Origin: a virus
DNA length: 42,869 bases
Direction: 5' to 3' (one strand)
Virus record (IMG/VR): IMGVR_UViG_3300045988_027679
Location: 1-42,869 of that record
The translations under genes were made by a program, and so were the position numbers. Positions within the stretch are counted from its first letter, which is position 1. Each line of letters starts with the position of its first letter. The notes below the pieces were generated by a model that worked only from the letters and a program-made list of their open reading frames with translations, was not told where the DNA came from and searched no databases. Positions 15,089 to 42,869 of the stretch are shown here, one piece after another.

Positions 15089-16279
15089 TTATTGTCTCAA
15101 TACGTGCGCCCTAGCCGTTCCGTGGCTCGCTACGGATAGCTTCTTCAAGGCCACGTATCGTATTGCGTCTATGCCGTGGTTGAATGCGTCTATAGGCTGG
15201 TTCGTGGTCTCTCCATCCCTTGACTTCTTCCACTTGTATTGCTGCATGTTATCGATGATGCCGTTGCTTCGTCTGGTTATGTTGATGCGGAAACGCTTCA
15301 AAATGTCGATGCCGTTGTTGATACTGTCCTTGCCCTTTGTGCTTGGTATTATCCACAGACCTTGGTTGTGGATTTCCCGAATGCTCTTTGGCTCTGCCGA
15401 GTCCGCAATGATGAGGTCTCGTTTTGTCAGTCCGTTTTCCTTGCATCGGTCTGCGATGTCTTGGTTCGTCAGCCCCGGCTGGTAGATTTCTTCGTCCACC
15501 CACAACTCTCCGTGCGCCAATATAAGGTGCTCCACTGCTGTCGGGTCGTTGGTAAATCCGAAGTCCATACCCCTGCATTCCATCTTCCACTCCTCCCTTG
15601 GTGGCAGCTTGTCAACGATGCCCCAGTTGGTGAAGATAAGCCCGGTAATCTTTCCGGTCAGTCCTCTGGCGTACACTCGCCAAAGTTCGGGGTCGTCAAT
15701 CTCTTCAATTTTCTTGTGCTCCTGCTCCGTCAGGAATCGGTTGTTTCTGTGGTCGCTCAGGATCAAGCGGCAGTCATCCCTGCCGATGATGTTGTTGTGC
15801 ACCCAGAACCTTGCGCTTGGGTTGTAGTCGATGAACACCTGCTTTCGGGTTCGGATTGCAAGCTGCCAGAACACTTCGTAGGGCACACCGTTCGCCTCGT
15901 TCACGAACAGGTAGTCACGCTTTCCGTTCTTTGCATCCTGCGCATCCTGGTAACTCTTAAACTCGATGATAGAGCCGTTCTTTCCTTTGTAGCTGCTTTC
16001 GCTCTTGTTGTTCTTGAACCAGTCCAGCAGCTCTGCCCTTGTGTTCAGGATGTTGTCGAGGTCTCGCATGGCTCCCACCTTCAAGTTCGGGAGGTCTTGA
16101 CCGCACACCGTGATGATTGCCATGGGGTGTTCAAAAGAAAGCACTATAAGACGCTGCATGATGGTGTATGTCTTCCCCGAGGACGTACCTCCTTGGTTTA
16201 CGAGAAACCTTGGCTTCACGTCCGCATTCGGGGCATACAGTTCACCAATAACGTCAAATAGTGCCATTCTTTCAAACAA
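15089..16279 (-). CDS. terL: Terminase large subunit
   Basis: Walker A NQGGTSSGKT, Walker B-like DYLFVNEA, and a C-terminal nuclease-like region GMDFGFTNDPTA; 396 aa. Confidence 0.85.
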   Translation of the reverse strand: MFERMALFDVIGELYAPNADVKPRFLVNQGGTSSGKTYTIMQRLIVLSFEHPMAIITVCGQDLPNLKVGAMRDLDNILNTRAELLDWFKNNKSESSYKGKNGSIIEFKSYQDAQDAKNGKRDYLFVNEANGVPYEVFWQLAIRTRKQVFIDYNPSARFWVHNNIIGRDDCRLILSDHRNNRFLTEQEHKKIEEIDDPELWRVYARGLTGKITGLIFTNWGIVDKLPPREEWKMECRGMDFGFTNDPTAVEHLILAHGELWVDEEIYQPGLTNQDIADRCKENGLTKRDLIIADSAEPKSIREIHNQGLWIIPSTKGKDSINNGIDILKRFRINITRRSNGIIDNMQQYKWKKSRDGETTNQPIDAFNHGIDAIRYVALKKLSVASHGTARAHVLRQ

Positions 16280-16310: not shown

Positions 16311-16916
16311 TTATTCTTCGTTCAATCCCTCACGCTCGATTACTTCCTGCTCGCTGGATGCACACTGGTGTCCGGAGTTGATGTAGCGTACCTCGATGCC
16401 GCCTTGGAAGCCTGCGTTCAAATCAAGAACGACCTTATCCAGTCCGAGCAGCTTGCAGATTTGCGTCTCAGCCTTTAAAATGATGTCAAGGTAGCGTGGG
16501 TCTCCGAGTCCTCGCTTCTCAGCATCGTACATTATCGCCTTGACGGTCTCCATCGTTACCTGCCCAGTTGAAGGATTCTCGTTTGGCAGTCCGACTTGCG
16601 TCTGTGTCTTGCCGTGGTAGTCTTCCTTGGATTTCTCCCATGCTTCCCAGGCTTCACGTATTACAAGCTTCAACCTTGCCACCTCGCTGGTTATCTTTTC
16701 GTCCGTGTCGGTCAGTCTCTCTTCCCTCCACTCCTTCAATAGCCGCTGAATGTCGCAGTGCGCTTGATTGTATTTCGGTCTGTCGAGACGCTTGCGAACC
16801 TCTGCCGTGATTTCCCGCTCCGTCCATCCCTTGCGGTATAGGGGTGCGATAATCTGCAGGCGGTTCTCGATGTCGATTTTCTGCGCTCGATGTTTGTTGT
16901 TATTACCTTGTGGCAT
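16311..16916 (-). CDS. Putative terminase small subunit / DNA-binding packaging protein
   Basis: 201 aa immediately upstream of terL, with an N-terminal HTH-like segment (YRKGWTEREITAEVRKRL) followed by helical/coiled regions. Confidence 0.45.
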   Translation of the reverse strand: MPQGNNNKHRAQKIDIENRLQIIAPLYRKGWTEREITAEVRKRLDRPKYNQAHCDIQRLLKEWREERLTDTDEKITSEVARLKLVIREAWEAWEKSKEDYHGKTQTQVGLPNENPSTGQVTMETVKAIMYDAEKRGLGDPRYLDIILKAETQICKLLGLDKVVLDLNAGFQGGIEVRYINSGHQCASSEQEVIEREGLNEE

Positions 16917-16927
16917 ACGATTCTGAT

Positions 16928-18172
16928 TTAAAATTTCGCTCCGTTGTACTTGTATACGATGTTTCCCTCGCTGTCTCGTTCGTCAGCTGGTACCATTGCC
17001 CCTTCGAACATCTTGTATGGCGAGTGCGCTGCCTGCGGATTGTTCCAGCACCACTTCATGTAGTCGGCTGCGCTCATCGTGTAATACTTCGAACTCTTCT
17101 CTCTTGTTCCCATGTTCATCGCCTTATCCAGTTTCGCCCTCAAGAAAATCTCTGCATCCAGCTTGATGTCGCTCCACCTCACGTACCCTTTACGCTTGCA
17201 AATGTTCAAAGCTTCGCAGAACTGTCCCCTGCTGTAGTTCCATGTTGGCGGCAATCCGCAGCAACTTCCATTGTGGCAAAGTTCCTTGAAGTGTGCGTCC
17301 GATACGTAAAAGCGCATTCCCAGCTGGTCGCACAGTTCCTTCATGTTATGGAAGAACGGTTCTTTGACCTTGCGGTTCAGTCTAAGATAGCCGGATTGTA
17401 CGCTGTACTTCTTGTAGAATGCGAGAATGTCGAAACCTGCCATCTCGCTGATGGTAGGCAACAACTCCTTCAATGTCGGGCTTCTCGTCTCGAGACAGAA
17501 AAATTCGGTGCTCAAAGCGGTAGCCCCTCTGTTGAATGCTTCCTTGATAAGGTCGAGGTACGTTGGAGTGCTAACTCCGATGATGAAGGGTCTAAGTCTC
17601 AGCGTTGCCCCTCCTGCCCCTGCATTGGCGATGCGCTCGATGGCTTCCAGTCTTGCTTGTGGGCTTTCCACCCCTCGCTCTATTACTCTAGCCTTCTCGG
17701 CATCGCTGGTGATGATTGAGAACTTGAAGTTCCAGTTCTTCTGCCCTCTGATCAAGTCCATGTATCGTTCATCTTTGGTGAACCATGCTCCCTTGGTCGA
17801 GAAGCAAAGCGGATAGTCTATATCCTTGAAGAAACGCAAAAGCTCCAGTGTCGTTCCGTACTTCCGTTCGAAGTTGTCGAACTGGTCGCTCATGCTTCCC
17901 CACTGCATGACCTTGCGAGCCTTGATGTATGGAGCAAAGTCTCCACCGTGCTTGTCGGGGTCAATGAACATTCGCTTGATGCGCTCAACGCTCACGTCCT
18001 TAACCTCCTTGTGCAGGTATTCCTTCTTCTTGCTGCCAATACCTCGCTGGTTCTGAGCAAAACAATACATACAGCCAAAGCTGCAATTATTGTAAGTGTC
18101 AAAAGCCATTGGCATTGAGCAGTCGGGAAACTCGTATGTTATTCTTGGCGTGTTGCCATAATGTTCTGCCAT
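16928..18172 (-). CDS. Radical SAM enzyme (SPL/COG1533-like or other; substrate unknown)
   Basis: CxxxCxxC cluster motif C30-S-F-G-C34-M-Y-C37 (YNNCSFGCMYCFAQ), plus a second Cys-rich patch CHNGSCCG in the C-terminal third; 414 aa. Confidence 0.8.
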   Translation of the reverse strand: MAEHYGNTPRITYEFPDCSMPMAFDTYNNCSFGCMYCFAQNQRGIGSKKKEYLHKEVKDVSVERIKRMFIDPDKHGGDFAPYIKARKVMQWGSMSDQFDNFERKYGTTLELLRFFKDIDYPLCFSTKGAWFTKDERYMDLIRGQKNWNFKFSIITSDAEKARVIERGVESPQARLEAIERIANAGAGGATLRLRPFIIGVSTPTYLDLIKEAFNRGATALSTEFFCLETRSPTLKELLPTISEMAGFDILAFYKKYSVQSGYLRLNRKVKEPFFHNMKELCDQLGMRFYVSDAHFKELCHNGSCCGLPPTWNYSRGQFCEALNICKRKGYVRWSDIKLDAEIFLRAKLDKAMNMGTREKSSKYYTMSAADYMKWCWNNPQAAHSPYKMFEGAMVPADERDSEGNIVYKYNGAKF

Positions 18173-18176
18173 ATCC

Positions 18177-18707
18177 TCATGAATTTATTTTGTTGATGAT
18201 AAAGTCTTTGATTTGGTCGGGTGTCTGCTTCGTGGTGTCTATCGCTACAACGTCACACCCCGCAGTTTGCCATTTCTTTGCCGAGTGTGCCGATTCTCGC
18301 TGTCCCCGGATAATATCCTTGCTCAACGTTCCGTTCGACCGTTCTGTGAGCCTTTTTTGGATTTCTTGCAGTGGTGCGTATAAGAAGATTACAATCTGTC
18401 TGTCCGAATTGAACATTGCGTGCGTCAAGTTCGGACCCCAGTTTTTAAGTCTCATGCCCTCGCAAATAATGCAGTCGGTGCTTTCAAGGGCTTTCTTCAC
18501 GATATCACGCAGTATGGTCGTACCGTTCAGATTGTCAACACCTCCGTACTTAACATCGTATCGCCCTGCAAATGCAACTCCATCCCTGGTGCTGCTTATT
18601 CCGTCCTTGTAGCTTTCAACGCCACCAAAGCTTTCTATCAGCTTTCGGGCGACGGTGCTCTTTCCGCTGGCGTTGGTTCCAATTATGAAAACACAAGTCT
18701 TTCTCAT
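18177..18707 (-). CDS. P-loop NTPase, small nucleotide/nucleoside-kinase-like
   Basis: N-terminal Walker A IIGTNASGKST. At 176 aa its size is typical of NMP/dNMP kinases. Its stop lies 4 nt before the radical SAM start. Confidence 0.7.
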   Translation of the reverse strand: MRKTCVFIIGTNASGKSTVARKLIESFGGVESYKDGISSTRDGVAFAGRYDVKYGGVDNLNGTTILRDIVKKALESTDCIICEGMRLKNWGPNLTHAMFNSDRQIVIFLYAPLQEIQKRLTERSNGTLSKDIIRGQRESAHSAKKWQTAGCDVVAIDTTKQTPDQIKDFIINKINS

Positions 18708-18812
18708 ATTCGAGTTATTTTTGTTAAATTTCGTCTCTGCCGGATTGAATTGTTCCGAGCGGATAGTTTATCCATTCCAAGCGTTTCTCCGACTTAAACG
18801 CAAAAATTCCGA

Positions 18813-19454
18813 CTATTCGGTTTTTTCCTTGAGTTCTTCCACGTCAAAGTTGCGCTTTTCGATTGCGTCAAGTCCCAGCATATCTGCCACGGCTTGTGCG
18901 TCCTCGCTGCGATATACGATGATGATGCGCTGCTCTTCGTCCTCTGCTGGCTCGTAGGTCGTGGCTTCCTGCTGGATTTCCCAGGGGTTCAATCCCCATC
19001 GCTGCATATCGTCCACGTCAAATGCTCCCTTTAGCTTCTCTTCATCCCAACTTCCAAAATAGACGTTATCCTTGATGATGAACTCGTCCGTCTCTTCTTC
19101 GGATAGGCTGTCAGCAATAACGACCTCGACCTTTGGTTCTGCCTTCCACTTCTCCCAGTGGCTGCAAAGCTGCTGCTTCTCTCCATCGGTCAGTTTCACG
19201 GCCACGGCTTCAATAGCTCCCTTGATTGCTTCGTCTTCCATCTGCTCGATGTTGAGCAGGGCACGGAAGCGCATGTTACCTCCGAGGATAACTCGGTTCT
19301 CATTGCAGACGATAGGTCTCATCTGTAACATCTTCGGAAACGTCAGAATGCTCTCAACGAGTTTCTGCATCTGCTGTGGCTCTATGGTTCGTGGGTTGTC
19401 TTGGTTCTCCACAAGGTCGTGCAGGTTGATGTTCTCGATTCTATTCTTCTCCAT
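18813..19454 (-). CDS. ParB/Srx N-terminal-domain protein (paralogue B)
   Basis: Contains HDLVENQDNPRTI ... RPIVCNENRVILGGNMRFRAL, i.e. an NPR box and a GxxR box analogous to ParB GERRxRA. It has an acidic C-terminal half and no obvious HTH. Confidence 0.7.
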   Translation of the reverse strand: MEKNRIENINLHDLVENQDNPRTIEPQQMQKLVESILTFPKMLQMRPIVCNENRVILGGNMRFRALLNIEQMEDEAIKGAIEAVAVKLTDGEKQQLCSHWEKWKAEPKVEVVIADSLSEEETDEFIIKDNVYFGSWDEEKLKGAFDVDDMQRWGLNPWEIQQEATTYEPAEDEEQRIIIVYRSEDAQAVADMLGLDAIEKRNFDVEELKEKTE

Positions 19455-20217
19455 TGTCTTCCTCCTTTCCTTCTTTTTGTCTTGGTTTCAGTTCGTCAAA
19501 GTTCCAGACGATGCGGTCAATATGATCAACTCCCAACAGCTTGGCAAGAAATGGCTCATCGGCTGGCTTGTAGTGAATGATTACGTTCTCACGTGGCAAA
19601 ACGCCATCGCCCATTATCGTTGGCAAGTCGTCAGGGGTCAAGTCCTGCCCTTCGATTTCAGGAGGTAGTTCCCCTGCGAATGGGTCGCCCTCTTGGTCGT
19701 CCTTGTCTTTCTTCTTGCACTTGCTTGTGCTGCTGGCTTCCGCTGGTGCTGGGTTCCAGACTGGCATACCCCAGTTCTGAAGCTGTGCGCTGTCCCATCG
19801 GTTCGCCAGGTCGTTGAAGTACCAGTTGCCGAAGGATAGGTTGTCTTTAATCATAAACTCCTGCTTCTGTGCTTCCGTCAAGTCTGATGCGCTCACAACG
19901 GTAACTGTTGGCTGCTGCTGCCATCCCTGCCAGTACTCCATCAATGCGGCTTGTTCCTCATCGGACAGACGCTGCTCTGCATCCAACTTCACTTGAATGC
20001 TTGTTTCATCCATCGTGACAATGTGCTGCAAAGCTTTCAGTCTCATATTTCCACCCAATGCGTGGAATGTCTCATCAACAACAATCGGGCGCAGGGTCAA
20101 CATTCGTGGGAACACGATGATGCTCTGCACCAGCTTCTGAAAGTTCGCTTGACTTATCTCCCTCGGGTTCGCTTCGTTCTCGCTGACCCTCGATAGTGCG
20201 ATTTCTTCTGTTTTCAT
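19441..20217 (-). CDS. ParB/Srx N-terminal-domain protein (paralogue A)
   Basis: Contains VSENEANPREI ... RPIVVDETFHALGGNMRLKAL, the same architecture as the downstream paralogue, with a 14-nt overlap to it. Confidence 0.7.
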   Translation of the reverse strand: MKTEEIALSRVSENEANPREISQANFQKLVQSIIVFPRMLTLRPIVVDETFHALGGNMRLKALQHIVTMDETSIQVKLDAEQRLSDEEQAALMEYWQGWQQQPTVTVVSASDLTEAQKQEFMIKDNLSFGNWYFNDLANRWDSAQLQNWGMPVWNPAPAEASSTSKCKKKDKDDQEGDPFAGELPPEIEGQDLTPDDLPTIMGDGVLPRENVIIHYKPADEPFLAKLLGVDHIDRIVWNFDELKPRQKEGKEEDNGEE

Positions 20218-20268: not shown

Positions 20269-20276
20269 CAAAGATA
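20269..20276 (-). promoter_or_regulatory. -7 box TAtcTTTG upstream of the ParB-like/terminase/tail operon
   Basis: The minus-sense sequence AAAAAGTCGTATCTTTGCGGCA lies 52 nt upstream of the ATG at 20217. It shares the extended sequence TCGTATCTTTGC with the head promoter at 6347-6354 and has no -33 TTTG. Confidence 0.5.
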
Positions 20277-20885: not shown

Positions 20886-21100
20886 TTTGTTTTATTTTTG
20901 ATTTTCTTTTTATTTTGTTATTTTCTTAAAATTTTCGTTCTAAGCCGTTATATCTGTGTCTGTGGGTAGTTGTTCGGGTTGCGGAATCCTACGTGCGTGT
21001 GTGCGCTTGTGTGCGCTTGTGCGCTAGCTCCCTACTATTCCTATCCTCTACCCTATAGTCCCTTCTCCTTTCCGTCTTGCTGGCTTGAAACAGAAAAATC

Positions 21101-21174
21101 GAGGGAGTGCCTGTCGATTTGCAAATAGATGAATATCTTATAACGGAACGAGTTTATTATGCAAGCACTCCCTC
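21101..21174. repeat. 10-bp perfect inverted repeat with a 54-nt spacer in a noncoding gap
   Basis: GAGGGAGTGC (21101-21110) pairs with GCACTCCCTC (21165-21174). On the minus-sense RNA the hairpin is followed by GAUUUUUCUGUUUC. Confidence 0.7.
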
Positions 21175-21257
21175 TTTGGATCTGTTACTTCATGTTCCAC
21201 CTCGCTTTCTTTGTTTAGAGTGGGTAGCGTTGATGGTCTGCCCAGCTGGTTAAATAC

Positions 21258-31695: not shown

Positions 31696-32865
31696 ATGGC
31701 TACACTAAGGTTATATCTTGATACTCGCTCCAAGCGTGCCGATGGTACGTCTGCGATTAGGCTCGCCGTAAACAACCACGGCAAAACCGCATACATCTCC
31801 CTAGGGCAATACGTGAGGGCTGATGAATGGGATAAGCGTCTGTGTCGTGTGCGCAAGCGTTCCGATAAGGATGCACTCAACGACTTCCTGCTGGACCGTC
31901 AGAACTTCTACAACCGAATCTTGATGCAGGTGCAAAGCAAGCAGACCTATCGTGGCAATATGACCGCCATCGCACTTCGTGATTTGCTCCTGCGTGAGGC
32001 TGACCCAAACGCAGGCATTATAACCCTGCGAGAAATGTTCCAGCGGTATACCTCAAAGGAAATGCGACAAAGCACCAAAAACAACTATCTTGCCACTTGG
32101 CGGACCATCGAGCAATTCGATAAGGCTGCTTCCTCGCTCACTTTGGAAGATATTAACCGTGATTGGGTCGAGCGGTACAATCTGTATCTGCTAGGTCTTG
32201 GACGCTCCCACAATACCCGAACGGTGCGAATACGTCATATTGCAGCCGTCTTTAATTACGCAATAGATAACGAGCTAACGAATAACTTTCCTTTCCGCAG
32301 GCTCAATCTATCGCTGGATAGCACTCGGAACAGAGATTTGTCGGTCGAGGAGATACGAGATATTTTCACGGCTGATGTTCCGGAACGTAGAAGATGTCTG
32401 CTGGACGCATTCAAGGCGATGTTTTTCTTGATCGGTATAAATCTACACGATATGTACGACCTCACGCCTGCCAACGTCATAGATGGGCGCATTGAGTACG
32501 TAAGACTAAAGACTGGGAAAAGGTACTCCATACTTATCCAGCCCGAACTACTGGAGATAATGAAGAAGTACCAAGGTACTCGCCATCTGTTTTCATTCTG
32601 CGAGAAGTATAAGAATGCTAATTCGTTCAGCATCTCAATGAACAATGCGCTGCGTTCCCTGCGTGATGGTCTTACGACCTATTACGGACGGCATACGTGG
32701 GCAACACTCGCCTTCAACCTTGGAATACCAAAGGACGTGGTGTCGCTTGCGCTGGGTCACTCGTTCGGTGTCCGGGTAACTGATACATACATCAATGCAG
32801 ACCTATCGAGAGTAGATGAAGCAAACCGCAGGGTTATTGATTACGTGCTATACAACAAGAAATAG
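31696..32865 (+). CDS. int: Tyrosine recombinase / phage integrase
   Basis: The N-terminus MATLRLYLDTRSKRADGTSAIRLAV fits the Bacteroidota Arm-type DNA-binding pattern. The C-terminus carries GRHTWATLA (HxxR), LGHS and TDTYI (catalytic Tyr region). Confidence 0.85.
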   Translation: MATLRLYLDTRSKRADGTSAIRLAVNNHGKTAYISLGQYVRADEWDKRLCRVRKRSDKDALNDFLLDRQNFYNRILMQVQSKQTYRGNMTAIALRDLLLREADPNAGIITLREMFQRYTSKEMRQSTKNNYLATWRTIEQFDKAASSLTLEDINRDWVERYNLYLLGLGRSHNTRTVRIRHIAAVFNYAIDNELTNNFPFRRLNLSLDSTRNRDLSVEEIRDIFTADVPERRRCLLDAFKAMFFLIGINLHDMYDLTPANVIDGRIEYVRLKTGKRYSILIQPELLEIMKKYQGTRHLFSFCEKYKNANSFSISMNNALRSLRDGLTTYYGRHTWATLAFNLGIPKDVVSLALGHSFGVRVTDTYINADLSRVDEANRRVIDYVLYNKK

Positions 32866-33737: not shown

Positions 33738-34202
33738 TTAATGTCTGTCTTTTTTCCATTGTCTATCCAACTTGGTTTTCATTCTGTTCATCTTGTGTTC
33801 CAGCTTGCCAATCTGCTTATAAGATAACCACTCCGGCTTGATGTTCAGCGACATCCAGTACTGGCGCATTTCCTTGCAGTGTCGGGCGATGCTTTGGAAA
33901 TAGAGGTGTCGCTCGTATGGGTTGCGAAGGAAGTACTCGCAATCGGATAGCATACGATTAAGCATCATGTATTTATGCTTTTGCCCTTCTCCGAGACTTA
34001 CAAGCCTTCCGTTGTCCCCGATCCACAGCATTGCGCCCTCTCCCTTCCATTCAAAGTTGAAAGCCTTGCTTACTGGATAATAATAGCCATTGAGCACCGT
34101 GCCTTCCTTGAGGTCTCGCCCAATCTCTCGCAGGCAGGTTCTTCCCCAGCTGGTCGTTACCTCGACCACTGCTTGTGCTGGTATCTTGTCGTATTCCTTC
34201 AT
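33738..34202 (-). CDS. Hypothetical protein
   Basis: 154-aa ORF. The segment YMMLNRMLSDCEYFLRNPYERHLYF resembles small domains seen in polyvalent/anti-restriction-associated proteins, a low-confidence recollection. Confidence 0.65.
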   Translation of the reverse strand: MKEYDKIPAQAVVEVTTSWGRTCLREIGRDLKEGTVLNGYYYPVSKAFNFEWKGEGAMLWIGDNGRLVSLGEGQKHKYMMLNRMLSDCEYFLRNPYERHLYFQSIARHCKEMRQYWMSLNIKPEWLSYKQIGKLEHKMNRMKTKLDRQWKKDRH

Positions 34203-38974: not shown

Positions 38975-39313
38975 TTAAACACAAATCGGCTCTACGTCCT
39001 TGTTTAGCAAGGTCGCTTGTGCCGTGGCAAGTCGATAAACTCGAGACGTGCTGATATAGGTGTAAGCCATCTTGCAAAGATGTCTCACAGCTGGAACGGT
39101 TCGGTTTAATACGGTCGCAGTGGTCGTTACGCTGAATCCTGCGTGTATCATCTGCTCAACGACCATACATCGTGTCATTACGAGGTTCTCTGCTCTCGAC
39201 TTGCCGAGAACGTCTTCTCTCGTAATACTTAATTCTCCGTTCGGCAGCTCAATAGCGCAACATTTGATTACGTTGTCTATAACTCGCCATAGTTCTTTCT
39301 CCTTGTCATTCAT
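38975..39313 (-). CDS. Small DnaA-domain-IV-like HTH protein
   Basis: ITREDVLGKSRAENLVMTRCMVVEQMIHAGFSVTTTATVLNRTVPAVRHLCKM parallels the DnaA C-terminal DNA-binding domain pattern (S+...v.aR.iamyL....g.S...IG..f.rdHstV.ha..k). Confidence 0.55.
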   Translation of the reverse strand: MNDKEKELWRVIDNVIKCCAIELPNGELSITREDVLGKSRAENLVMTRCMVVEQMIHAGFSVTTTATVLNRTVPAVRHLCKMAYTYISTSRVYRLATAQATLLNKDVEPICV

Positions 39314-39324
39314 AATAAAATGTT

Positions 39325-39627
39325 TTAATCGTTTCCCAACATCGAATCAATCATTCCTTCGATGGCTTCATCGGTCATTCTCTCTTTGATGGAGGCATCA
39401 CCGCCAATCGATTTCATCAACATACCTATCCAAGGATTGTCACTTTCCATGGTGGAATGTATCTGTTCCTTGTATGCTTCGTGAAGCTCGCCCGATTCCT
39501 TGAAATGCAAAAGAACAGTGCGCAAGGCTTTCACCACGTAGTTATCCATCAGCAAGGGATTGTCTCTTGCCGATGAAAGTTTGGTAAGAAGCACTGCCAG
39601 TGCTTCATGTAATGGTTTCTTTTTCAT
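39325..39627 (-). CDS. Hypothetical protein
   Basis: 100-aa helical ORF. Confidence 0.65.
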   Translation of the reverse strand: MKKKPLHEALAVLLTKLSSARDNPLLMDNYVVKALRTVLLHFKESGELHEAYKEQIHSTMESDNPWIGMLMKSIGGDASIKERMTDEAIEGMIDSMLGND

Positions 39628-39700
39628 ATTGTCTTATTTTTAATTTACAAAATCAACGACTTAAAGTTCATGTTTTTTCTCTTTATCATTCATAGTTTTA

Positions 39701-40852
39701 TTAGTTTATTGTAAATATTGTCATTGTAGCAACATTATTAAGATAAGAAGATATATAAAGATTATTATCTCCTTTAAACTTATATATTTGCTTAGGAATA
39801 GGATAAACATAATTATCAACTACTGCACCATATTTTTCAGGAGGATAAATATTTTTTTGTAAATAAGCATTCCAATGAGTATAAAGTTTATCATCCTTTT
39901 TAGCATAAAATATACCAGTAACAGTATCGAATACTATACTATTAGGATAATTTATAACATCATTGTAATTTATAGAGCCTGCTGCTCTAGTTATTTCACC
40001 TTCAACATATATAGCAGCATTTGAAAGCAGATTCAATACATCAATACGACCCCCATTAGTACTCCATACTTCATTTTTATTTGGATTAATTATTGAGTTA
40101 AACTTTTCAGCATTAACAGAAGATTCTTTTCCATCTATAATAGTAGATATTTTACCTTTACCATCTTCTGTGTATCTAAGTCTAATTCTACCTCCAGAAC
40201 CTTCTATATCAGAATCTCCTGAAATATTTAATATAGTATCACCATCATCAACATTATGTTCTGAATAAATATTTCCATTTTGAGAAGATACATATCCGCT
40301 TAAATTATCAATTTTACTTTCATCTATTTTACCATCAGCATTTAATGTAGGTATTCCGTTTGCTTTATTTAATGGAATAGAACTAGCATCAGTAGTCCAA
40401 ACTTCAGGAATAGAAAATTTATCTTGGTCTGTATGTGCTATACCTGCAACATTTACAATAGAAAGACCTTCATTAATAGAACCTTCAATACAAGATATAT
40501 ATAAAGTACCTGTCATTATTCCACCTGAAAGAGGCAGATATGTACTAGGTATATCATCAAGTTTAGTTTTATCTGAAATAGACATAAAACCTGCATTACC
40601 AGGAAAAGTAAAAGTACCTACTTTATAAGGTCCACTAGCTTCAGGAACGTTGACATATTTATGAGTTCCATCAGCAAGTTCAATTCTAATAGAAGTGTTA
40701 GAAGGAGTATCATCGTCATCATTAACAAAATTTGGATTATATACTTCTATATCCTTTACAGTTTCAGTCTTTTTGGAATAAGGAGTTAAATTAAACTTAT
40801 CACTAAGAGCTTGATGATAATATTTCAAACCATCTAAATCTAAAAATTTCAT
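39701..40852 (-). CDS. Tail fibre / receptor-binding protein encoded in a strongly AT-rich segment
   Basis: 383 aa. The motif GNAGFMSISDKTKLDDI matches the widespread fibre motif G.MS..DK.KLD.I. The protein is beta-rich, and its codon usage differs markedly from the rest of the genome. Confidence 0.75.
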   Translation of the reverse strand: MKFLDLDGLKYYHQALSDKFNLTPYSKKTETVKDIEVYNPNFVNDDDDTPSNTSIRIELADGTHKYVNVPEASGPYKVGTFTFPGNAGFMSISDKTKLDDIPSTYLPLSGGIMTGTLYISCIEGSINEGLSIVNVAGIAHTDQDKFSIPEVWTTDASSIPLNKANGIPTLNADGKIDESKIDNLSGYVSSQNGNIYSEHNVDDGDTILNISGDSDIEGSGGRIRLRYTEDGKGKISTIIDGKESSVNAEKFNSIINPNKNEVWSTNGGRIDVLNLLSNAAIYVEGEITRAAGSINYNDVINYPNSIVFDTVTGIFYAKKDDKLYTHWNAYLQKNIYPPEKYGAVVDNYVYPIPKQIYKFKGDNNLYISSYLNNVATMTIFTIN

Positions 40853-40876
40853 ATTAATTAATTTTTAAAATTATTA

Positions 40877-41380
40877 TTAAGCAAATAATGCATCTATTTC
40901 TTCTGTAGTTATTGCTGTAGGAAAGTCCTTTTTCAAGATTTCGGCCAATCTGTTTGCGATGTCCCTGTAGGTATCCGTTCTGATTTTTTCTGCTGTCACG
41001 CTGCCGTTTCTGATGTTTCCTTCCGATATACAGTTCTCGGTCAGATGGTCGTGTTTGACCGCTCTCGCCTGGATCTTGTCTCCGGTCACACAAATGGGTG
41101 CTAGGTTTCTGTTCTTTACAGAGCCGTAGGCAAGCTTCGCTCCCGTTATTGCCTCATCCGCAATTTGAGCACTCGTTATAGTTGTCTTGGCGAGTTCACT
41201 CTTGACAATCTTAACGACCGCATCGTTCTCCAGTTTATCGTCCATCATGACGAGCATCTTGCTTAACTCGACAACGATGTCGTAAATTTCCGTGCCGACA
41301 CGCACCGCCGTGTTCTCCCCAACCTCCGTAGCCTCCTTAATCTGTTGGGCTACCGCAAGCATTTCATGTATTGTTGCCAT
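40877..41380 (-). CDS. Fibre-associated protein (167 aa)
   Basis: I placed the start at ATG 41380 (MATIHEMLAV), 19 nt after the upstream stop. It has repetitive segments (ITSAQIADEAITGAKLAYGSV, VTGDKIQARAVKHDHLTENCISEGNIRNGSVTAEKI) typical of fibre shafts. Confidence 0.65.
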   Translation of the reverse strand: MATIHEMLAVAQQIKEATEVGENTAVRVGTEIYDIVVELSKMLVMMDDKLENDAVVKIVKSELAKTTITSAQIADEAITGAKLAYGSVKNRNLAPICVTGDKIQARAVKHDHLTENCISEGNIRNGSVTAEKIRTDTYRDIANRLAEILKKDFPTAITTEEIDALFA

Positions 41381-41399
41381 GGCTATATATATTAAAAAA

Positions 41400-41912
41400 T
41401 TAGTAATCAACTTTTCTTGGATAGCCAGCCGTAACGTCAAAGTTGCGCACTTCTTCAATGTCAGACAGCCAATCGACTGTAAGCATGTGCTCATGCGTTA
41501 CGTTGTTTGTTGTCTTGGCGTAAATTTCTAGAGTGTCAAGCAATGAAATTGCATCGTCTATAGGAAGTACCACTTTGTCTGTGTCGAACCAAATAGTGAT
41601 GCTGTCATGCCCTTTCTCTTTGAGAATCTTTGCAGAGTAAGCAATGCTCTGTCGCTTGTCAAGGTTGAGCCAACGAGGAACACCATTAAGAATAAATGAG
41701 TTTACGGCCGATGATGTGTCGTAGGCTGTTATCTCGGCTATCTTATCAGCCTTTGCCTGCTCCAATTTTTCTTTTTCGGTAAGTGGAGGCTCAACATATT
41801 CCTCATAGCCAGCCTTAATCAGCATATCCTCTATTGGGTTACACACTATGCATCCGTTTAACTCTATGGTGTCGGATGCAAAGACACCGTTCTTAATCCA
41901 TCGTTTATTCAT
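41400..41912 (-). CDS. DUF4376-like protein (fibre assembly/accessory)
   Basis: 170 aa. KEKLEQAKADKIAEITAYDTSSAVNSF.LNG...WL....R.S matches my memory of DUF4376 found beside phage fibre genes. Confidence 0.5.
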   Translation of the reverse strand: MNKRWIKNGVFASDTIELNGCIVCNPIEDMLIKAGYEEYVEPPLTEKEKLEQAKADKIAEITAYDTSSAVNSFILNGVPRWLNLDKRQSIAYSAKILKEKGHDSITIWFDTDKVVLPIDDAISLLDTLEIYAKTTNNVTHEHMLTVDWLSDIEEVRNFDVTAGYPRKVDY

Positions 41913-41913
41913 A

Positions 41914-42869
41914 TTATACTAAATTAATTGTGTAACCTTTATTAGTTAAGGATTGAATTTGCTCTTCAGAAAATCCGTATGAAGTTTTTAGCTTCAACGT
42001 TACATTTGGCAAGCCATTAGCCTTTCTGTCGTATAGTGACATGAATGAAACCTTTGACTCTTCATCTAATGAGGCGAAACTGCTCATGTCAAACGTAGCT
42101 TCTTGTTTTATCTTGCCAAAACCTTCTCCCAAAACAAGATGTTTCAAATTTTGGTTTAATTCAAAGAATGAATTTACATTTGTAGCACTTGTCAAGTCGA
42201 ACCCTGATATATCGAGCCACTCTAATGCCGTACATATAGAAAATACCCATGCGTAATTTGTAACATTTTTTGTGTTAAACTTAGACAAATCCAGTTTTTG
42301 CAGATTTCTATTATTGTACCATGTACAATACATTTTTTTCAGATTATTACCCTCTCTCAATTCTGGAAGTTTTAGCTTTGTTACACTAGAACTACCCGAT
42401 CCACCACTGAAAGCATAAGTTAAATCTATCATACTGCTAAAATCATTCATGGTTAAATCTTGCAAGGCACTGCATCCTTCAAAGCAATGGAACAAAGAAG
42501 TAACTTTACTAGTGTCCCAAGAGGATAAGTCTAAACTCTGCAAGGCACTGCATCCTTGGAAACAATAAGTCAAATCAGTAACTTTACTAGTGTCCCAAGA
42601 GGATAAGTCTAAACTCTGCAAGGCACTGCATCCTTGGAAACAATAAGTCAAATCAGTAACTTTACTAGTGTCCCAAGAGGATAAGTCTAAACTCTGCAAG
42701 GCACTGCATCCTTCAAAGCAATGGAACAAAGAAGTAACTTTACTAGTGTCCCAAGAGGATAAGTCTAAACTCTGCAAGGCACTGCATCCTTCAAAGCAAT
42801 GGAACAAAGAAGTAACTTTACTAGTGTCCCAAGAGGATAAGTCTAAACTCTGCAAGGCACTGCATCCTT
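41914..42869 (-). CDS. BspA/DUF285-type 26-residue-repeat protein, 3' part (ORF open at the right window edge)
   Basis: It has five near-identical 26-aa units SLDLSSWDTSKVT(S/D)L(F/T)(H/Y)CF(E/Q)GCSALQ followed by degenerate units (LDLSKFNTKNVTNYAWVF, LDISGFDLTSATNVNSFF). It continues in frame with 222..1 across the window ends. Confidence 0.8.
   Translation of the reverse strand, partial: GCSALQSLDLSSWDTSKVTSLFHCFEGCSALQSLDLSSWDTSKVTSLFHCFEGCSALQSLDLSSWDTSKVTDLTYCFQGCSALQSLDLSSWDTSKVTDLTYCFQGCSALQSLDLSSWDTSKVTSLFHCFEGCSALQDLTMNDFSSMIDLTYAFSGGSGSSSVTKLKLPELREGNNLKKMYCTWYNNRNLQKLDLSKFNTKNVTNYAWVFSICTALEWLDISGFDLTSATNVNSFFELNQNLKHLVLGEGFGKIKQEATFDMSSFASLDEESKVSFMSLYDRKANGLPNVTLKLKTSYGFSEEQIQSLTNKGYTINLV
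42455..42869. repeat. 78-nt tandem repeat (about 5.3 units here, continuing at nt 1-108)
   Basis: Two alternating unit variants have long identical cores. nt 1-108 are identical to 42499-42606. Confidence 0.9.

What the first reader, a model, noticed from the sequence alone, without database searches (positions are those of the whole stretch)
16928..20217. Radical SAM enzyme + small P-loop kinase + two tandem ParB/Srx-like paralogues wedged directly upstream of the terminase genes
Four consecutive genes under one late-type promoter have no obvious morphogenetic role. Two are paralogous ParB N-terminal-domain proteins with NPR and GGNMR(F/L)(R/K)AL boxes, no visible HTH, and acidic tails. The third is a 176-aa Walker-A kinase-like protein. 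The fourth is a 414-aa radical SAM protein (C30xxxC34xxC37 plus a second Cys cluster). No ParA partner exists, so this is not a partition system. A radical SAM enzyme paired with a nucleotide kinase recalls nucleotide-modifying pairs such as viperin with CMPK2, or DNA-modification/repair enzymes of the SPL/COG1533 type. ParB/Srx domains recur in DNA-modification and packaging contexts. Co-transcription with terminase suggests action on DNA or the nucleotide pool at packaging time, for example a hypermodification or anti-defence function. I cannot assign the family by eye.
Basis: partly seen in the sequence, partly recalled or inferred. Interest (0 to 1): 0.65.

Follow-up and report, generated by a model that had tools for sequence, protein, structure and literature searches.

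The report
Radical-SAM DNA hypermodification cassette in gut phage
A Segatella (Prevotella) copri phage carries, just before its DNA-packaging genes, a four-gene set that most likely chemically modifies thymine in the phage DNA, apparently using an oxygen-independent radical SAM enzyme where related phages of aerobic bacteria use an oxygen-dependent TET/JBP enzyme.

Summary
The four genes are real, lie at the stated coordinates and are under purifying selection (pN/pS 0.07-0.20). They encode two paralogous ParB N-domain proteins without an HTH, a P-loop kinase and a 414-aa radical SAM (rSAM) enzyme. The kinase is a homologue of the proven 5-hmdU DNA kinase M6 gp54 (hhalign 97.8%). The closest solved fold to the rSAM is spore photoproduct lyase (Foldseek 2e-9), with viperin about 10^5-fold weaker. 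It is remotely related to M6 gp53, the one rSAM known to act in DNA hypermodification.

In 75 diverse viral loci the rSAM sits next to this ParB type (60 loci) and upstream of terminase. The genes between them are the known thymidine-hypermodification toolkit: 5-hmdU-type kinases, amino acid:DNA transferases, GNAT, GATase, TET-associated glycosyltransferases and MetK. Natural fusions join the rSAM to the glycosyltransferase and to the kinase. No TET/JBP dioxygenase or dUMP hydroxymethylase was found. All 58 genome hits come from gut, rumen or other anaerobe-type assemblies.

Best reading: a ParB-assisted, post-replicative thymine hypermodification cassette in which the rSAM replaces the O2-dependent thymine dioxygenase. 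No chemistry was shown. It is a new variant of a known kind.

The parts
19441..20217 (-). ParB1: 258-aa ParB/Srx N-terminal (nucleotide-binding) domain protein with an acidic disordered linker and a small C-terminal domain; no HTH. Proposed activator or DNA-loading partner of the rSAM.
   Evidence: ORF. PHROG 498/620/940 ParB-like. Family profile hits the Spo0J/ParB/Noc N-domain only. hhalign 97.3% to the TET/JBP-associated ParB gp1 of Rhodococcus phage Tonitrus. pN/pS 0.067.
18813..19454 (-). ParB2: 213-aa paralogue of ParB1 with a shorter linker. Possible heterodimer partner.
   Evidence: 33% identity to ParB1 over full length, E 2e-41. PHROG 498/620. Tandem ParBs also occur in L080, L218, L220 and L235. 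pN/pS 0.081.
18177..18707 (-). 176-aa P-loop kinase, homologue of phage 5-hmdU DNA kinases (5-HMUDK).
   Evidence: P-loop GTNASGKST. phrog_800, E 1e-13; M6 gp54 carries the same mis-label, which suggests phrog_800 is its family. hhalign 97.8%, E 1e-12, 141 columns to M6 gp54, the proven 5-hmdU DNA kinase. hhalign 95.9% to the Tonitrus gp7 kinase. Weak Pfam HMUD2 hit. Natural fusion kinase-rSAM-TAGT, P0130.
16928..18172 (-). 414-aa SPL-like radical SAM enzyme. It has the C30/C34/C37 cluster, conserved C18, a C304-C305 'CCG' motif and a W376-N377 'WNNP' motif. Proposed DNA thymine-methyl-activating enzyme.
   Evidence: PF04055. NCBIfam PA0069/Rv2578c rSAM families, far below cut-off. AF2 model pLDDT 94.3. 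Foldseek top five hits are all spore photoproduct lyase, E 2e-9 to 1e-8. hhalign 97.0% to M6 gp53. Fusions to TAGT. pN/pS 0.081.
20269..20276 (-). Candidate Bacteroidetes-type -7 promoter box (TATCTTTG) upstream of ParB1. Weak evidence.
   Evidence: The motif is not enriched in the window, so this is only a candidate.
16311..16916 (-). Context: 201-aa gene between the rSAM and TerL. Presumed small terminase by position only.
   Evidence: Its homologues (cluster c5) lie directly after the rSAM in 24 loci and were found in 27 of 75. Its only family hit is phrog_645, labelled 'Rnase E'. It shows no similarity to the BS-TP3 TerS.
15089..16279 (-). Context: large terminase subunit.
   Evidence: Terminase_3, Terminase_3C and Terminase_6N.

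Best explanation
The block is a post-replicative DNA hypermodification cassette of a temperate Segatella copri phage. It is expressed with the packaging genes, so that DNA would be modified before it is packaged.

Proposed mechanism:
1. The SPL-like radical SAM enzyme cleaves SAM to a 5'-deoxyadenosyl radical. This abstracts a hydrogen from the C5-methyl of thymine in duplex DNA, giving the same allylic thymine radical that spore photoproduct lyase handles.
2. The radical is oxidised and trapped by water, possibly through the conserved C18 and C304-C305. The product is 5-hydroxymethyluracil or an equivalent activated 5-methylene species. No O2 is needed.
3. The two ParB paralogues, probably as a dimer, load on DNA and activate the enzyme on double-stranded substrate, as published for ParB-dependent TET/JBP thymine dioxygenases.
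4. The P-loop kinase phosphorylates the 5-hydroxymethyl group, as the 5-hmdU DNA kinases do.

This phage has no transferase, so 5-phosphomethyl-dU (or 5-hmdU) may be the final base. In relatives, amino acid:DNA transferases, GNATs, GATases or TET-associated glycosyltransferases carry the chemistry further.

What is shown: gene identity, fold, homologies, conserved linkage, fusions, and absence of TET/JBP. What is inferred: every chemical step, the substrate base, the ParB role and the timing.
For: (1) The kinase family aligns with M6 gp54, the experimentally proven 5-hmdU DNA kinase (Prob 97.8%, E 1e-12; function from PMC8989533). It also aligns with the kinase of the Tonitrus TET/JBP cluster (95.9%).

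(2) The rSAM model (pLDDT 94.3) is closest to spore photoproduct lyase, a DNA-acting rSAM that works through a thymine-methyl radical (E 2e-9, next family 4e-6). It is remotely homologous to M6 gp53 (97.0%).

(3) Census of 75 diverse viral loci with rSAMs of mostly 36-42% identity to the reference sequence. ParB lies upstream in 60. Between ParB and the rSAM lie ADDT/AADT (29 loci; 21 of 24 members hit PF18724, best 1e-18), 5-hmdU-type kinases (23+7+4 loci), GNAT (19), TAGT (19+6 and more), GATase, HAD-APH kinase, cytidylyltransferase and MetK (12).

(4) Rosetta-stone fusions: TAGT-rSAM, rSAM-TAGT and kinase-rSAM-TAGT.

(5) Control with an aerobe's phage, Rhodococcus phage Tonitrus, which has ParB, TET/JBP, AADT and kinase. 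Its AADT finds the AADT genes next to the rSAM (to E 2.5e-39). Its ParB matches the window's ParB family (97.3%). Its TET/JBP finds nothing (best E 3.6) in the window plus 299 rSAM loci.

(6) No TET_JBP, thymidylate-synthase-like or DNA methyltransferase family was detected in the window. No recurrent TET_JBP appeared among 99 unidentified neighbour clusters.

(7) The published ParB-dependent thymine dioxygenases have the same ParB architecture and the same partners: P-loop kinases, AADTs, GATases, GTs and terminases (PMC13229309).

(8) Hosts: the window's rSAM is 97% identical to one in the Segatella copri HDE04 chromosome. The other genome hits carry gut, rumen or other anaerobe-type labels, apart from a few oddly named MAG bins. 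This fits an O2-sensitive enzyme replacing an O2-requiring one.

(9) The rSAM is the best-conserved gene of the cassette (70% identity where ParB is 42%, kinase 31-37% and TerS 38%). All four genes are under purifying selection.
Against: - No chemistry was observed. The substrate base and the product are inferred from neighbours only.
- As far as I know, trapping by water after rSAM hydrogen abstraction from a thymine methyl has no direct enzymatic precedent.
- The window has a kinase but no transferase, so the end product is unclear.
- Some ParB+TAGT loci have neither an rSAM nor a recognisable dioxygenase (L303, L319, L358). TAGT is therefore not strict proof of a hydroxymethyl-pyrimidine made by the adjacent gene.
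- The kinase scores below Pfam's cut-off for HMUD2 (18.3 vs 25).
- The test for TET/JBP absence used one query sequence, plus Pfam on cluster representatives with only the top 25 of 67 families displayed.
- The anaerobe bias comes from a pattern search seeded on the window's relatives.
- The only characterised relative, M6 gp53, is an isomerase acting late in a pathway, not an initiating enzyme.
Confidence: 0.55

Rival explanations
1. The cassette modifies DNA, but the rSAM does different chemistry or acts on a different base. Examples are a C-C or C-S adduct on thymine, modification of cytosine or a purine, or formation of an electrophile that is trapped directly by a nucleophile. The kinase and the glycosyl or amino-acid transferases of relatives would then act on that product rather than on 5-hmU.
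For: The fold and context show only a DNA-directed, SPL-like rSAM. Family-specific conserved cysteines (C18, C304-C305) and a C-terminal domain not shared with SPL or gp53 allow novel chemistry. Some cassettes hold a second rSAM-SPASM enzyme or a 280-aa rSAM paralogue. ParB+TAGT pairs exist without any known hydroxylase.
Against: The kinase and AADT families are the ones shown experimentally to use 5-hmdU and 5-PmdU. TAGT is defined by its association with TET/JBP products. No C5-methyltransferase is present to supply 5mC. SPL chemistry centres on the thymine methyl.
Confidence: 0.2
2. The rSAM is a late tailoring enzyme like M6 gp53 (N-alpha-glycinylthymine isomerase). The hydroxymethyl precursor would come from an unrecognised phage or host enzyme.
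For: hhalign 97.0% to M6 gp53 over 237 columns. gp53 also sits next to a 5-hmdU DNA kinase. 29 of 75 loci have an AADT that could make the gp53-type substrate.
Against: The window and several other loci (L180, L184, L185, L190, L196) have no AADT, so no glycinyl-thymine substrate. The rSAM is equally present in TAGT-only and ParB-only cassettes. Identity to gp53 is 18%, and the C-terminal ~120 residues with the conserved CCG and WNNP motifs are not shared. No thymidylate-synthase-like hydroxymethylase, DNA polymerase or TET/JBP is present, whereas M6 has both a thymidylate synthase homologue and a polymerase.
Confidence: 0.12
3. The ParB proteins are packaging or partition accessories (pac-site recognition, or plasmid-prophage segregation). 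The rSAM would be an SPL-type DNA repair enzyme and the kinase an unrelated moron.
For: The position is directly upstream of the terminase. The source annotation of the rSAM family is 'DNA repair photolyase'. The closest fold is SPL.
Against: There is no HTH, no ParA, and an integrase is present. No repeat array suggestive of parS or pac lies in the block. The ParB-rSAM linkage persists across three different TerL families. The hosts are gut anaerobes, not UV-exposed spores. No SPL family model is matched, and PA0069 scores 56 bits against a 360-bit cut-off. The genes in between are DNA-modification enzymes.
Confidence: 0.05
4. A nucleotide-pool system like viperin plus CMPK2. The kinase would make an NTP and the rSAM would convert it to a chain terminator or modified nucleotide, for anti-defence or host takeover.
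For: An rSAM next to a small nucleotide-kinase-like protein. There are weak kinase hits to cytidylate, adenylate and shikimate kinase models.
Against: Viperin structures match at only 1e-4 to 9e-4 against 2e-9 for SPL. No viperin family hit appeared. The kinase is closest to a kinase that acts on DNA. The ParB partner, the TAGT/AADT neighbours and the fusions all point to DNA as the substrate.
Confidence: 0.04

Closest known systems
ParB-dependent phage thymine dioxygenase (5mYOX, TET/JBP) hypermodification clusters (O'Toole et al., PNAS 2026, PMC13229309), e.g. Rhodococcus phage Tonitrus gp1-gp7
   Same: A short ParB with a nucleotide-binding domain, disordered linker and small C-terminal domain, and no DNA-binding domain. 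ParB homology is 97.3% and kinase homology 95.9%. The accessory set is the same: P-loop 5-hmdU kinases, AADTs, GATases and glycosyltransferases. The location is near the terminase. The logic is post-replicative.
   Different: No TET/JBP protein is present. An unrelated SPL-like radical SAM enzyme occupies that place. The hosts are anaerobes, and the cofactor logic differs (SAM and an Fe-S cluster instead of O2, Fe(II) and 2-oxoglutarate). The paper does not mention radical SAM enzymes.
Pseudomonas phage M6 gp51-gp54 thymidine hypermodification cluster (Lee et al., NAR 2021/2022, PMC8989533)
   Same: An SPL-like rSAM (gp53) sits adjacent to a 5-hmdU DNA kinase (gp54). Both are homologous to the window proteins (97.0% and 97.8%).
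   Different: gp53 is a glycinyl-thymine isomerase that needs AADT gp51 and PLP enzyme gp52. M6 has its own thymidylate synthase homologue and DNA polymerase and, per PMC8989533, its hypermodified bases derive from 5-hmdU; supply as a nucleotide before replication is my reading of that pathway. M6 has no ParB next to its cluster. The window has no AADT, PLP enzyme, polymerase or hydroxymethylase. Identity is 18%, and the C-terminal domain is not shared.
Spore photoproduct lyase (SplB; PDB 4FHC and others)
   Same: It is the best structural match (E 2e-9, TM 0.55-0.58 on the target, ~300 columns). It is an rSAM acting on duplex DNA whose catalytic cycle passes through a thymine C5-methyl (allylic) radical (established knowledge; PMC3467042 listed, not read).
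   Different: No sequence-level match. There is an extra ~120-residue C-terminal region with CCG and WNNP motifs. The position after the third cluster cysteine is Phe (F38), whereas I recall SPL having a relay tyrosine (Y98) there (my recollection; not checked by alignment here). The biological setting (gut phage, modification gene neighbours) excludes spore photoproduct repair as the role.
ParB-N/DNA methyltransferase fusions and ParB+Mom or ParB+TAGT pairs upstream of phage terminases
   Same: The same ParB N-domain family and the same genomic slot. Examples are the PHROG 498 match, Bacteroides phage BS-TP3 gp51-gp52, L300, L322 and L379 (MTase), L368 (Mom), and L303 and L319 (TAGT).
   Different: The partner enzyme there is a SAM methyltransferase, Mom or a glycosyltransferase, not an rSAM. 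Those loci have no kinase.
Viperin (RSAD2) with CMPK2, and prokaryotic viperins
   Same: An rSAM next to a small P-loop kinase.
   Different: A weak structural match only. There is no family hit, the kinase lineage is different, and the context is DNA-directed. This analogy is rejected.

Membership tests
Radical SAM superfamily | CxxxCxxC [4Fe-4S] motif and a partial TIM-barrel core | tested here: met
   C30/C34/C37 are invariant in 41 sequences. PF04055 scores 31.3 bits against a 29.5 cut-off. The AF2 model matches many rSAM structures.
Spore photoproduct lyase (SplB) family | Sequence membership in the SPL family models | tested here: not met
   No SPL model hit in NCBIfam. The best hits are the PA0069 (56 bits vs 360) and Rv2578c (40 vs 430) rSAM families. 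No phmmer or hmmsearch hit to SPL chains in the PDB.
Spore photoproduct lyase (SplB) family | SPL-like fold | tested here: met
   The top five Foldseek hits are SPL entries, E 1.8e-9 to 1e-8, about 1000-fold better than the next family.
Spore photoproduct lyase (SplB) family | Catalytic H-donor cysteine (C140/141) and tyrosine relay | not testable with these tools
   No model coordinates or residue-level structural alignment were available. The family has its own conserved C18 and C304-C305.
M6 gp53-type glycinyl-thymine isomerase | Homology to gp53 | tested here: inconclusive
   hhalign 97.0%, E 8.5e-11, 237 columns, 18% identity. The core barrel aligns; the C-terminal domain does not.
M6 gp53-type glycinyl-thymine isomerase | Co-occurrence with AADT and a PLP decarboxylase that supply and consume its substrate | tested here: not met
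   Neither is in the window. An AADT is present in only 29 of 75 related loci.
5-hmdU DNA kinase (5-HMUDK) | P-loop kinase homologous to experimentally characterised 5-HMUDKs | tested here: met
   hhalign 97.8%, E 1e-12, 141 columns to M6 gp54. phrog_800, E 1e-13. 95.9% to Tonitrus gp7.
5-hmdU DNA kinase (5-HMUDK) | Passing curated Pfam models HMUD1/HMUD2 | tested here: not met
   The window kinase scores 18.3 bits on HMUD2 against a 25 cut-off. Relatives in other cassettes score 25.2 against 27 on HMUDK_HMUD1 and 31.4 against 27 on Ploopntkinase3.
5-hmdU DNA kinase (5-HMUDK) | Phosphorylation of 5-hmdU in DNA | not testable with these tools
   Requires biochemistry.
ParB/Srx N-terminal domain proteins | ParB nucleotide-binding domain with a GxxR box | tested here: met
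   The family profile hits the Spo0J/ParB/Noc N-domains, E 1e-12 to 1e-10. NPR and GGNMR boxes are present. Pfam PF02195 itself gave no hit on the single sequences.
Chromosome/plasmid partition ParABS | ParA ATPase partner, HTH DNA-binding domain and parS sites | tested here: not met
   No ParA. Only the N-domain matches. No repeat array in the block.
ParB-dependent 5mYOX thymine hypermodification system | Activator ParB of NBD, linker and CTD architecture without a DNA-binding domain | tested here: met
   The architecture is seen in alignment A6 and compared with the description in PMC13229309. Homology to Tonitrus gp1 is 97.3%.
ParB-dependent 5mYOX thymine hypermodification system | A TET/JBP (PF12851) Fe(II)/2OG dioxygenase partner | tested here: not met
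   None within 10 kb of the block by precomputed Pfam, and no family hit of that kind on the other window ORFs scanned with Pfam or PHROGs. None recurrent in 75 related loci. The Tonitrus TET/JBP finds nothing in the window plus 299 loci.
Thymidine hypermodification pathway (Lee et al.) | A source of 5-hmdU (dUMP hydroxymethylase plus polymerase, or a DNA thymine oxidase) | tested here: inconclusive
   No known source is present. The rSAM is proposed as the source by elimination and context only.
Prokaryotic viperin | Viperin-type rSAM with an NTP-binding C-terminal extension | tested here: not met
   No family hit. Foldseek gives E 8e-5 to 1e-3 for viperin and viperin-like enzymes (9dfn, 5vsl, 5vsm, 9dfu), far behind SPL.

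The most novel reading that the evidence does not exclude
This rSAM family is the first O2-independent DNA thymine C5-methyl oxidase: a radical SAM '5-hmU synthase' activated by a ParB clamp. Phages of strict anaerobes would use it in place of TET/JBP dioxygenases to start thymidine hypermodification. In the Segatella copri phage, the kinase-only version would leave 5-phosphomethyl-deoxyuridine (or 5-hmdU) as the final virion base.
Probability: 0.38. Interest if true: 0.9.

Novelty: new variant of a known kind. Interest (0 to 1): 0.78.

Why it matters
If correct, it adds a second, mechanistically unrelated way to functionalise thymine in DNA after replication. It would explain how phages of strictly anaerobic gut and rumen bacteria can build hypermodified DNA when TET/JBP enzymes cannot work without O2.

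The family is large: 2217 clusters at 90% identity and 1188 at 50% identity in metagenome-scale protein sets. One close cluster alone holds 2823 member sequences. It sits in prophages of Segatella copri, a major human gut species. Modified DNA in these phages would affect restriction and CRISPR evasion, nanopore and PacBio base-calling, and virome library preparation.

An rSAM that installs a handle on thymine in duplex DNA, together with its ParB activator, would also interest enzymologists, and could serve as an O2-free tool for DNA labelling. It also broadens the role of HTH-less ParB proteins as general partners of DNA-modifying enzymes: methyltransferases, Mom, glycosyltransferases, dioxygenases and now rSAM.

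Tried and rejected
- **DNA and protein searches of the cultured-phage collection.** These found almost nothing: a TerS-side match of 16% coverage, one weak rSAM hit, and two ParB hits. The family is essentially absent from isolated, annotated phages.
- **Sequence searches of the PDB with the rSAM or its profile.** No real hit, even at E<=10. Only fold comparison worked.
- **AADT-like cluster c3.** Its profile found nothing in the PDB and was not significant against M6 gp51 (10%). It was identified instead through Pfam ADDT on all members and the Tonitrus AADT.
- **Alignment A2.** It was too divergent for the locus finder, and A1 failed on genome contigs. Re-ordered or smaller alignments solved this (A3, A7).
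- **Promoter claim.** The -7 motif is present but not enriched.
- **Repeats in the block.** Only chance-level matches, with no parS- or pac-like array.
- **TerS.** No similarity to the BS-TP3 TerS.
- **Viperin/CMPK2, SPL repair and partition readings.** Considered and rejected, as set out under the rival explanations.
- **Literature.** Seven full-text searches found no paper linking a radical SAM enzyme to 5-hmU formation, to TAGT or to ParB in phage DNA modification. Iyer et al. 2013 (the source of the TAGT, HMUD and aGPT-Pplase families) did not come up in those searches and I did not read it.

Full report
**1. Observation**

The window is a temperate tailed-phage genome. It has:
- an integrase at 31696-32865 (+);
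- a RecE/YqaJ-like exonuclease, a DnaD-like replication protein and a RuvC-like resolvase;
- a large terminase, structural and tail genes, and an endolysin.

Its rSAM gene is 97% identical at protein level to one in the Segatella copri HDE04 chromosome. The window is therefore an S. copri phage or prophage.

All stated motifs are present. ParB1 and ParB2 are true paralogues (33% identity, E 2e-41). Against dozens of close relatives, pN/pS is 0.07-0.20, the same range as TerS and TerL. These are functional genes. The single-promoter claim cannot be confirmed: one Bacteroidetes-type -7 box lies upstream of ParB1, but the motif occurs at chance frequency.

**2. What the proteins are**

*rSAM.*
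- It passes PF04055.
- Its best curated-family matches are the uncharacterised PA0069 and Rv2578c rSAM families, far below their cut-offs.
- An AlphaFold2 model built on 41 diverse relatives is confident (pLDDT 94.3).
- Its five best PDB matches are all spore photoproduct lyase (E 1.8e-9 to 1e-8). The next family is about 1000-fold weaker, and viperin is at 1e-4.
- In the viral structure library the best match is an unnamed 469-aa protein at 14% identity. No close relative is represented there.
- Family-wide invariant residues are D25, C30, C34, Y36, C37, K127, R192, P195 and W376. C18, C304-C305 (CCG) and N377 are near-invariant.

*Kinase.*
- It gives only weak generic kinase hits in Pfam and NCBIfam.
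- It matches phrog_800, labelled 'terminase small subunit', at 1e-13.
- RefSeq gives the same wrong name to Pseudomonas phage M6 gp54. M6 gp54 is the experimentally proven 5-hmdU DNA kinase (PMC8989533), which suggests the PHROG label is the same mis-annotation.
- A profile of the window's kinase family aligns with gp54 at 97.8% probability (E 1e-12, 141 columns).

*ParBs.*
- They give no Pfam hit singly.
- Their family profile matches the N-terminal CTP-binding domain of Spo0J/ParB/Noc (E 1e-12 to 1e-10) and nothing beyond it.
- The rest is an acidic, gap-rich linker and a small conserved C-terminal domain.

**3. Context in related sequences**

The rSAM family is large. It has 2217 clusters at 90% identity in one protein set and 1188 representatives at 50% identity in another. 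The few source names read 'DNA repair photolyase' or 'hypothetical'.

I fetched 78 diverse viral loci, called ORFs, clustered them and mapped them relative to the rSAM. In 75 loci with an rSAM:
- the ParB family lies 2-5 genes upstream in 60 loci;
- the TerS-like gene is directly downstream in 24 loci (found in 27 of 75);
- three different TerL families follow;
- the genes in between vary.

| Genes between ParB and the rSAM | Loci | Evidence |
|---|---|---|
| Amino acid:DNA transferase (PF18724) | 29 | 21 of 24 members hit, best 1e-18 |
| Kinase of the window's type | 23 | |
| Ploopntkinase3 type kinase | 7 | |
| HMUDK_HMUD1 type kinase | 4 | |
| GNAT acetyltransferase | 19 | |
| TET-associated glycosyltransferase (PF20691) | at least 25 | |
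| HAD + APH-like kinase | 11 | census and sequence inspection; Pfam found no family for it |
| Cytidylyltransferase | 7 | |
| SAM synthetase (MetK) | 12 | |
| GATase, rSAM-SPASM enzyme | a few | |

The window's arrangement (ParB, kinase, rSAM) recurs in distant loci: L180, L184, L185, L190 and L196. The rSAM is also the best-conserved gene. In relatives where it is 70% identical, ParB is 42%, the kinase 31-37% and TerS 38%.

Independent gene fusions join the rSAM to TAGT at either end, and to a kinase of the window's family plus TAGT in one 894-aa protein. Inteins interrupt some members.

**4. Link to what is published**

Lee et al. (PMC8989533) showed that thymidine hypermodifications are built on 5-hmdU in DNA. 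A P-loop kinase phosphorylates it. An amino acid:DNA transferase then replaces the phosphate, and tailoring enzymes follow. Those tailoring enzymes include acetyltransferases and one SPL-like rSAM, M6 gp53, an isomerase.

O'Toole et al. (PMC13229309) showed that many phages make 5-hmU after replication with TET/JBP-type thymine dioxygenases. One subclass needs a short ParB (NBD, linker, CTD, no DNA-binding domain) to act on duplex DNA. Its neighbourhoods hold P-loop kinases, AADTs, GATases and glycosyltransferases, and often terminases. That description fits the cassettes found here gene for gene, except for the dioxygenase.

I used Rhodococcus phage Tonitrus as a control. It carries ParB gp1, TET/JBP gp3, AADT gp6 and kinase gp7, with the terminase at gp13. 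Tested against the window's families and loci:

| Tonitrus protein | Result |
|---|---|
| ParB gp1 | 97.3% hhalign to the window's ParB family |
| Kinase gp7 | 95.9% hhalign to the window's kinase family |
| AADT gp6 | Detects the AADT genes beside the rSAM, down to E 2.5e-39 |
| TET/JBP gp3 | Detects nothing (best E 3.6) in the window plus 299 rSAM-bearing loci |

Further checks gave the same picture:
- Precomputed Pfam for all genes within 10 kb of the block, and my scans of other window ORFs, show no TET_JBP, thymidylate-synthase-like or DNA methyltransferase family.
- Among 99 unidentified neighbour clusters, the 25 families listed included no TET_JBP. There was one ThyX, one C5-methyltransferase cluster and two N6/N4 methylase clusters.

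**5. Inference**

The downstream enzymes need a hydroxymethyl (or similarly activated) pyrimidine in DNA. No known source of one is encoded. The only invariant partners of the ParB are this rSAM and, downstream, the terminase. The nearest structural relative of the rSAM works on duplex DNA through a thymine C5-methyl radical.

The most economical reading is non-orthologous replacement: the rSAM does the job of the TET/JBP thymine dioxygenase without O2. Two observations fit this:
- The host range fits. Among the 58 genome loci, the labels are Segatella, Prevotella, other Bacteroidales, Clostridia, Oscillospiraceae, Lachnospiraceae, Selenomonas, Victivallales and a few oddly named MAG bins. All come from gut, rumen or similar assemblies. 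That search was seeded on the window's relatives.
- SAM synthetase genes occur frequently in the cassettes. An rSAM that uses SAM as a co-substrate would consume one SAM per modified base (inference).

The chemistry after hydrogen abstraction is my inference and has no direct precedent that I know of. The proposed steps are one-electron oxidation and capture by water or a cysteine, with a possible role for C18 and C304-C305. With a kinase but no transferase, the window phage may stop at 5-phosphomethyl-dU or 5-hmdU. This is speculative.

**6. Cautions**

- Nothing here measures a modified base.
- TAGT also occurs with a ParB alone, without the rSAM or a recognisable dioxygenase (L303, L319, L358). 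Its presence is therefore suggestive rather than conclusive.
- The same ParB type precedes methyltransferases (fused or separate), Mom, and a 473-aa methyltransferase in Bacteroides phage BS-TP3. ParB marks a 'DNA modifier', not thymine oxidation specifically.
- The only characterised homologue, gp53, acts late in a pathway. That role is excluded for the window only because its substrate-forming partners are absent.
- TerS is assigned by position only.

**7. Verdict**

The viperin/CMPK2 analogy is rejected.

The system belongs to a known kind, ParB-assisted post-replicative thymidine hypermodification. It differs in having an unrelated, O2-independent enzyme in the initiating position, which I did not find described in the searchable literature.

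| Claim | Confidence |
|---|---|
| It is a DNA hypermodification cassette | about 0.8 |
| The rSAM is the initiating enzyme | about 0.55 |
| The rSAM makes 5-hmU from thymine | about 0.4 |

Noticed in passing
window 39001-41000 (ORF 39701-40852, minus strand): A sharp GC drop to 0.30-0.37 against about 0.48 elsewhere. It contains a 383-aa ORF with no Pfam or PHROG hit, next to tail-fibre-like ORFs at 40877-42855. It looks like a recently acquired receptor-binding or moron gene.
   Followed up: no
window 33738-34202 (minus strand): A 154-aa protein with an LPD11 domain ('large polyvalent protein-associated domain 11', E 4e-18). It lies in the early or lysogeny region near the integrase.
   Followed up: no
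L240 (Pseudomonas phage M6) 16686-17249; PHROG 800: RefSeq annotates M6 gp54, the experimentally proven 5-hmdU DNA kinase, as 'terminase small subunit'. PHROG 800 carries the same label. This mis-annotation can hide hypermodification kinases in phage genomes.
   Followed up: partly
P0125, P0133, P0136 (rSAM family representatives): Inteins (Intein_splicing, LAGLIDADG and HNH-like DUF559 domains) are inserted in some members of this rSAM family.
   Followed up: no
L300, L301, L307, L322, L379 (MTase); L368 (Mom); L303, L319, L358, L366 (TAGT); L241 (Bacteroides phage BS-TP3 gp51-gp52): Short HTH-less ParB proteins just upstream of terminase genes pair with many different DNA modifiers. These include N6/N4 methyltransferases (often fused), Mom (PF25680, E 4e-55), TET-associated glycosyltransferases without any recognisable hydroxylase, and a 473-aa methyltransferase. 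This suggests a general ParB 'modifier-loading' role.
   Followed up: partly
L160-L166, L184, L190, L177, L304, L311, L332, L373: A second, short (278-297 aa) rSAM paralogue (CGCxHxCxYC motif) lies near the ParB in some cassettes, sometimes without the long rSAM. Four loci (L168, L192, L209, L213) instead have an rSAM-SPASM enzyme directly before the long rSAM.
   Followed up: no
window 21089-21113 / 21162-21186: An imperfect 25-nt inverted repeat (76% complementary, 48-nt loop) in the gap upstream of the RuvC-like gene. It may be a regulatory or terminator element.
   Followed up: no
window 16311-16916 (minus strand): The presumed small terminase matches only phrog_645, labelled 'Rnase E', and no TerS family. 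Homologues lie directly after the rSAM in 24 loci (27 of 75 carry one). The assignment is positional.
   Followed up: partly
L001-L077 (close relatives), rSAM gene: 2 of 73 full-length ungapped rSAM copies carry an internal stop codon. These are either assembly errors or occasional pseudogenes.
   Followed up: no
L242 (Segatella copri HDE04 chromosome NZ_CP152346.1, 1932306-1949547): A near-identical copy of the cassette sits in a complete genome of a cultured strain (rSAM 97% identical). This gives a tractable lysogen for experiments.
   Followed up: partly
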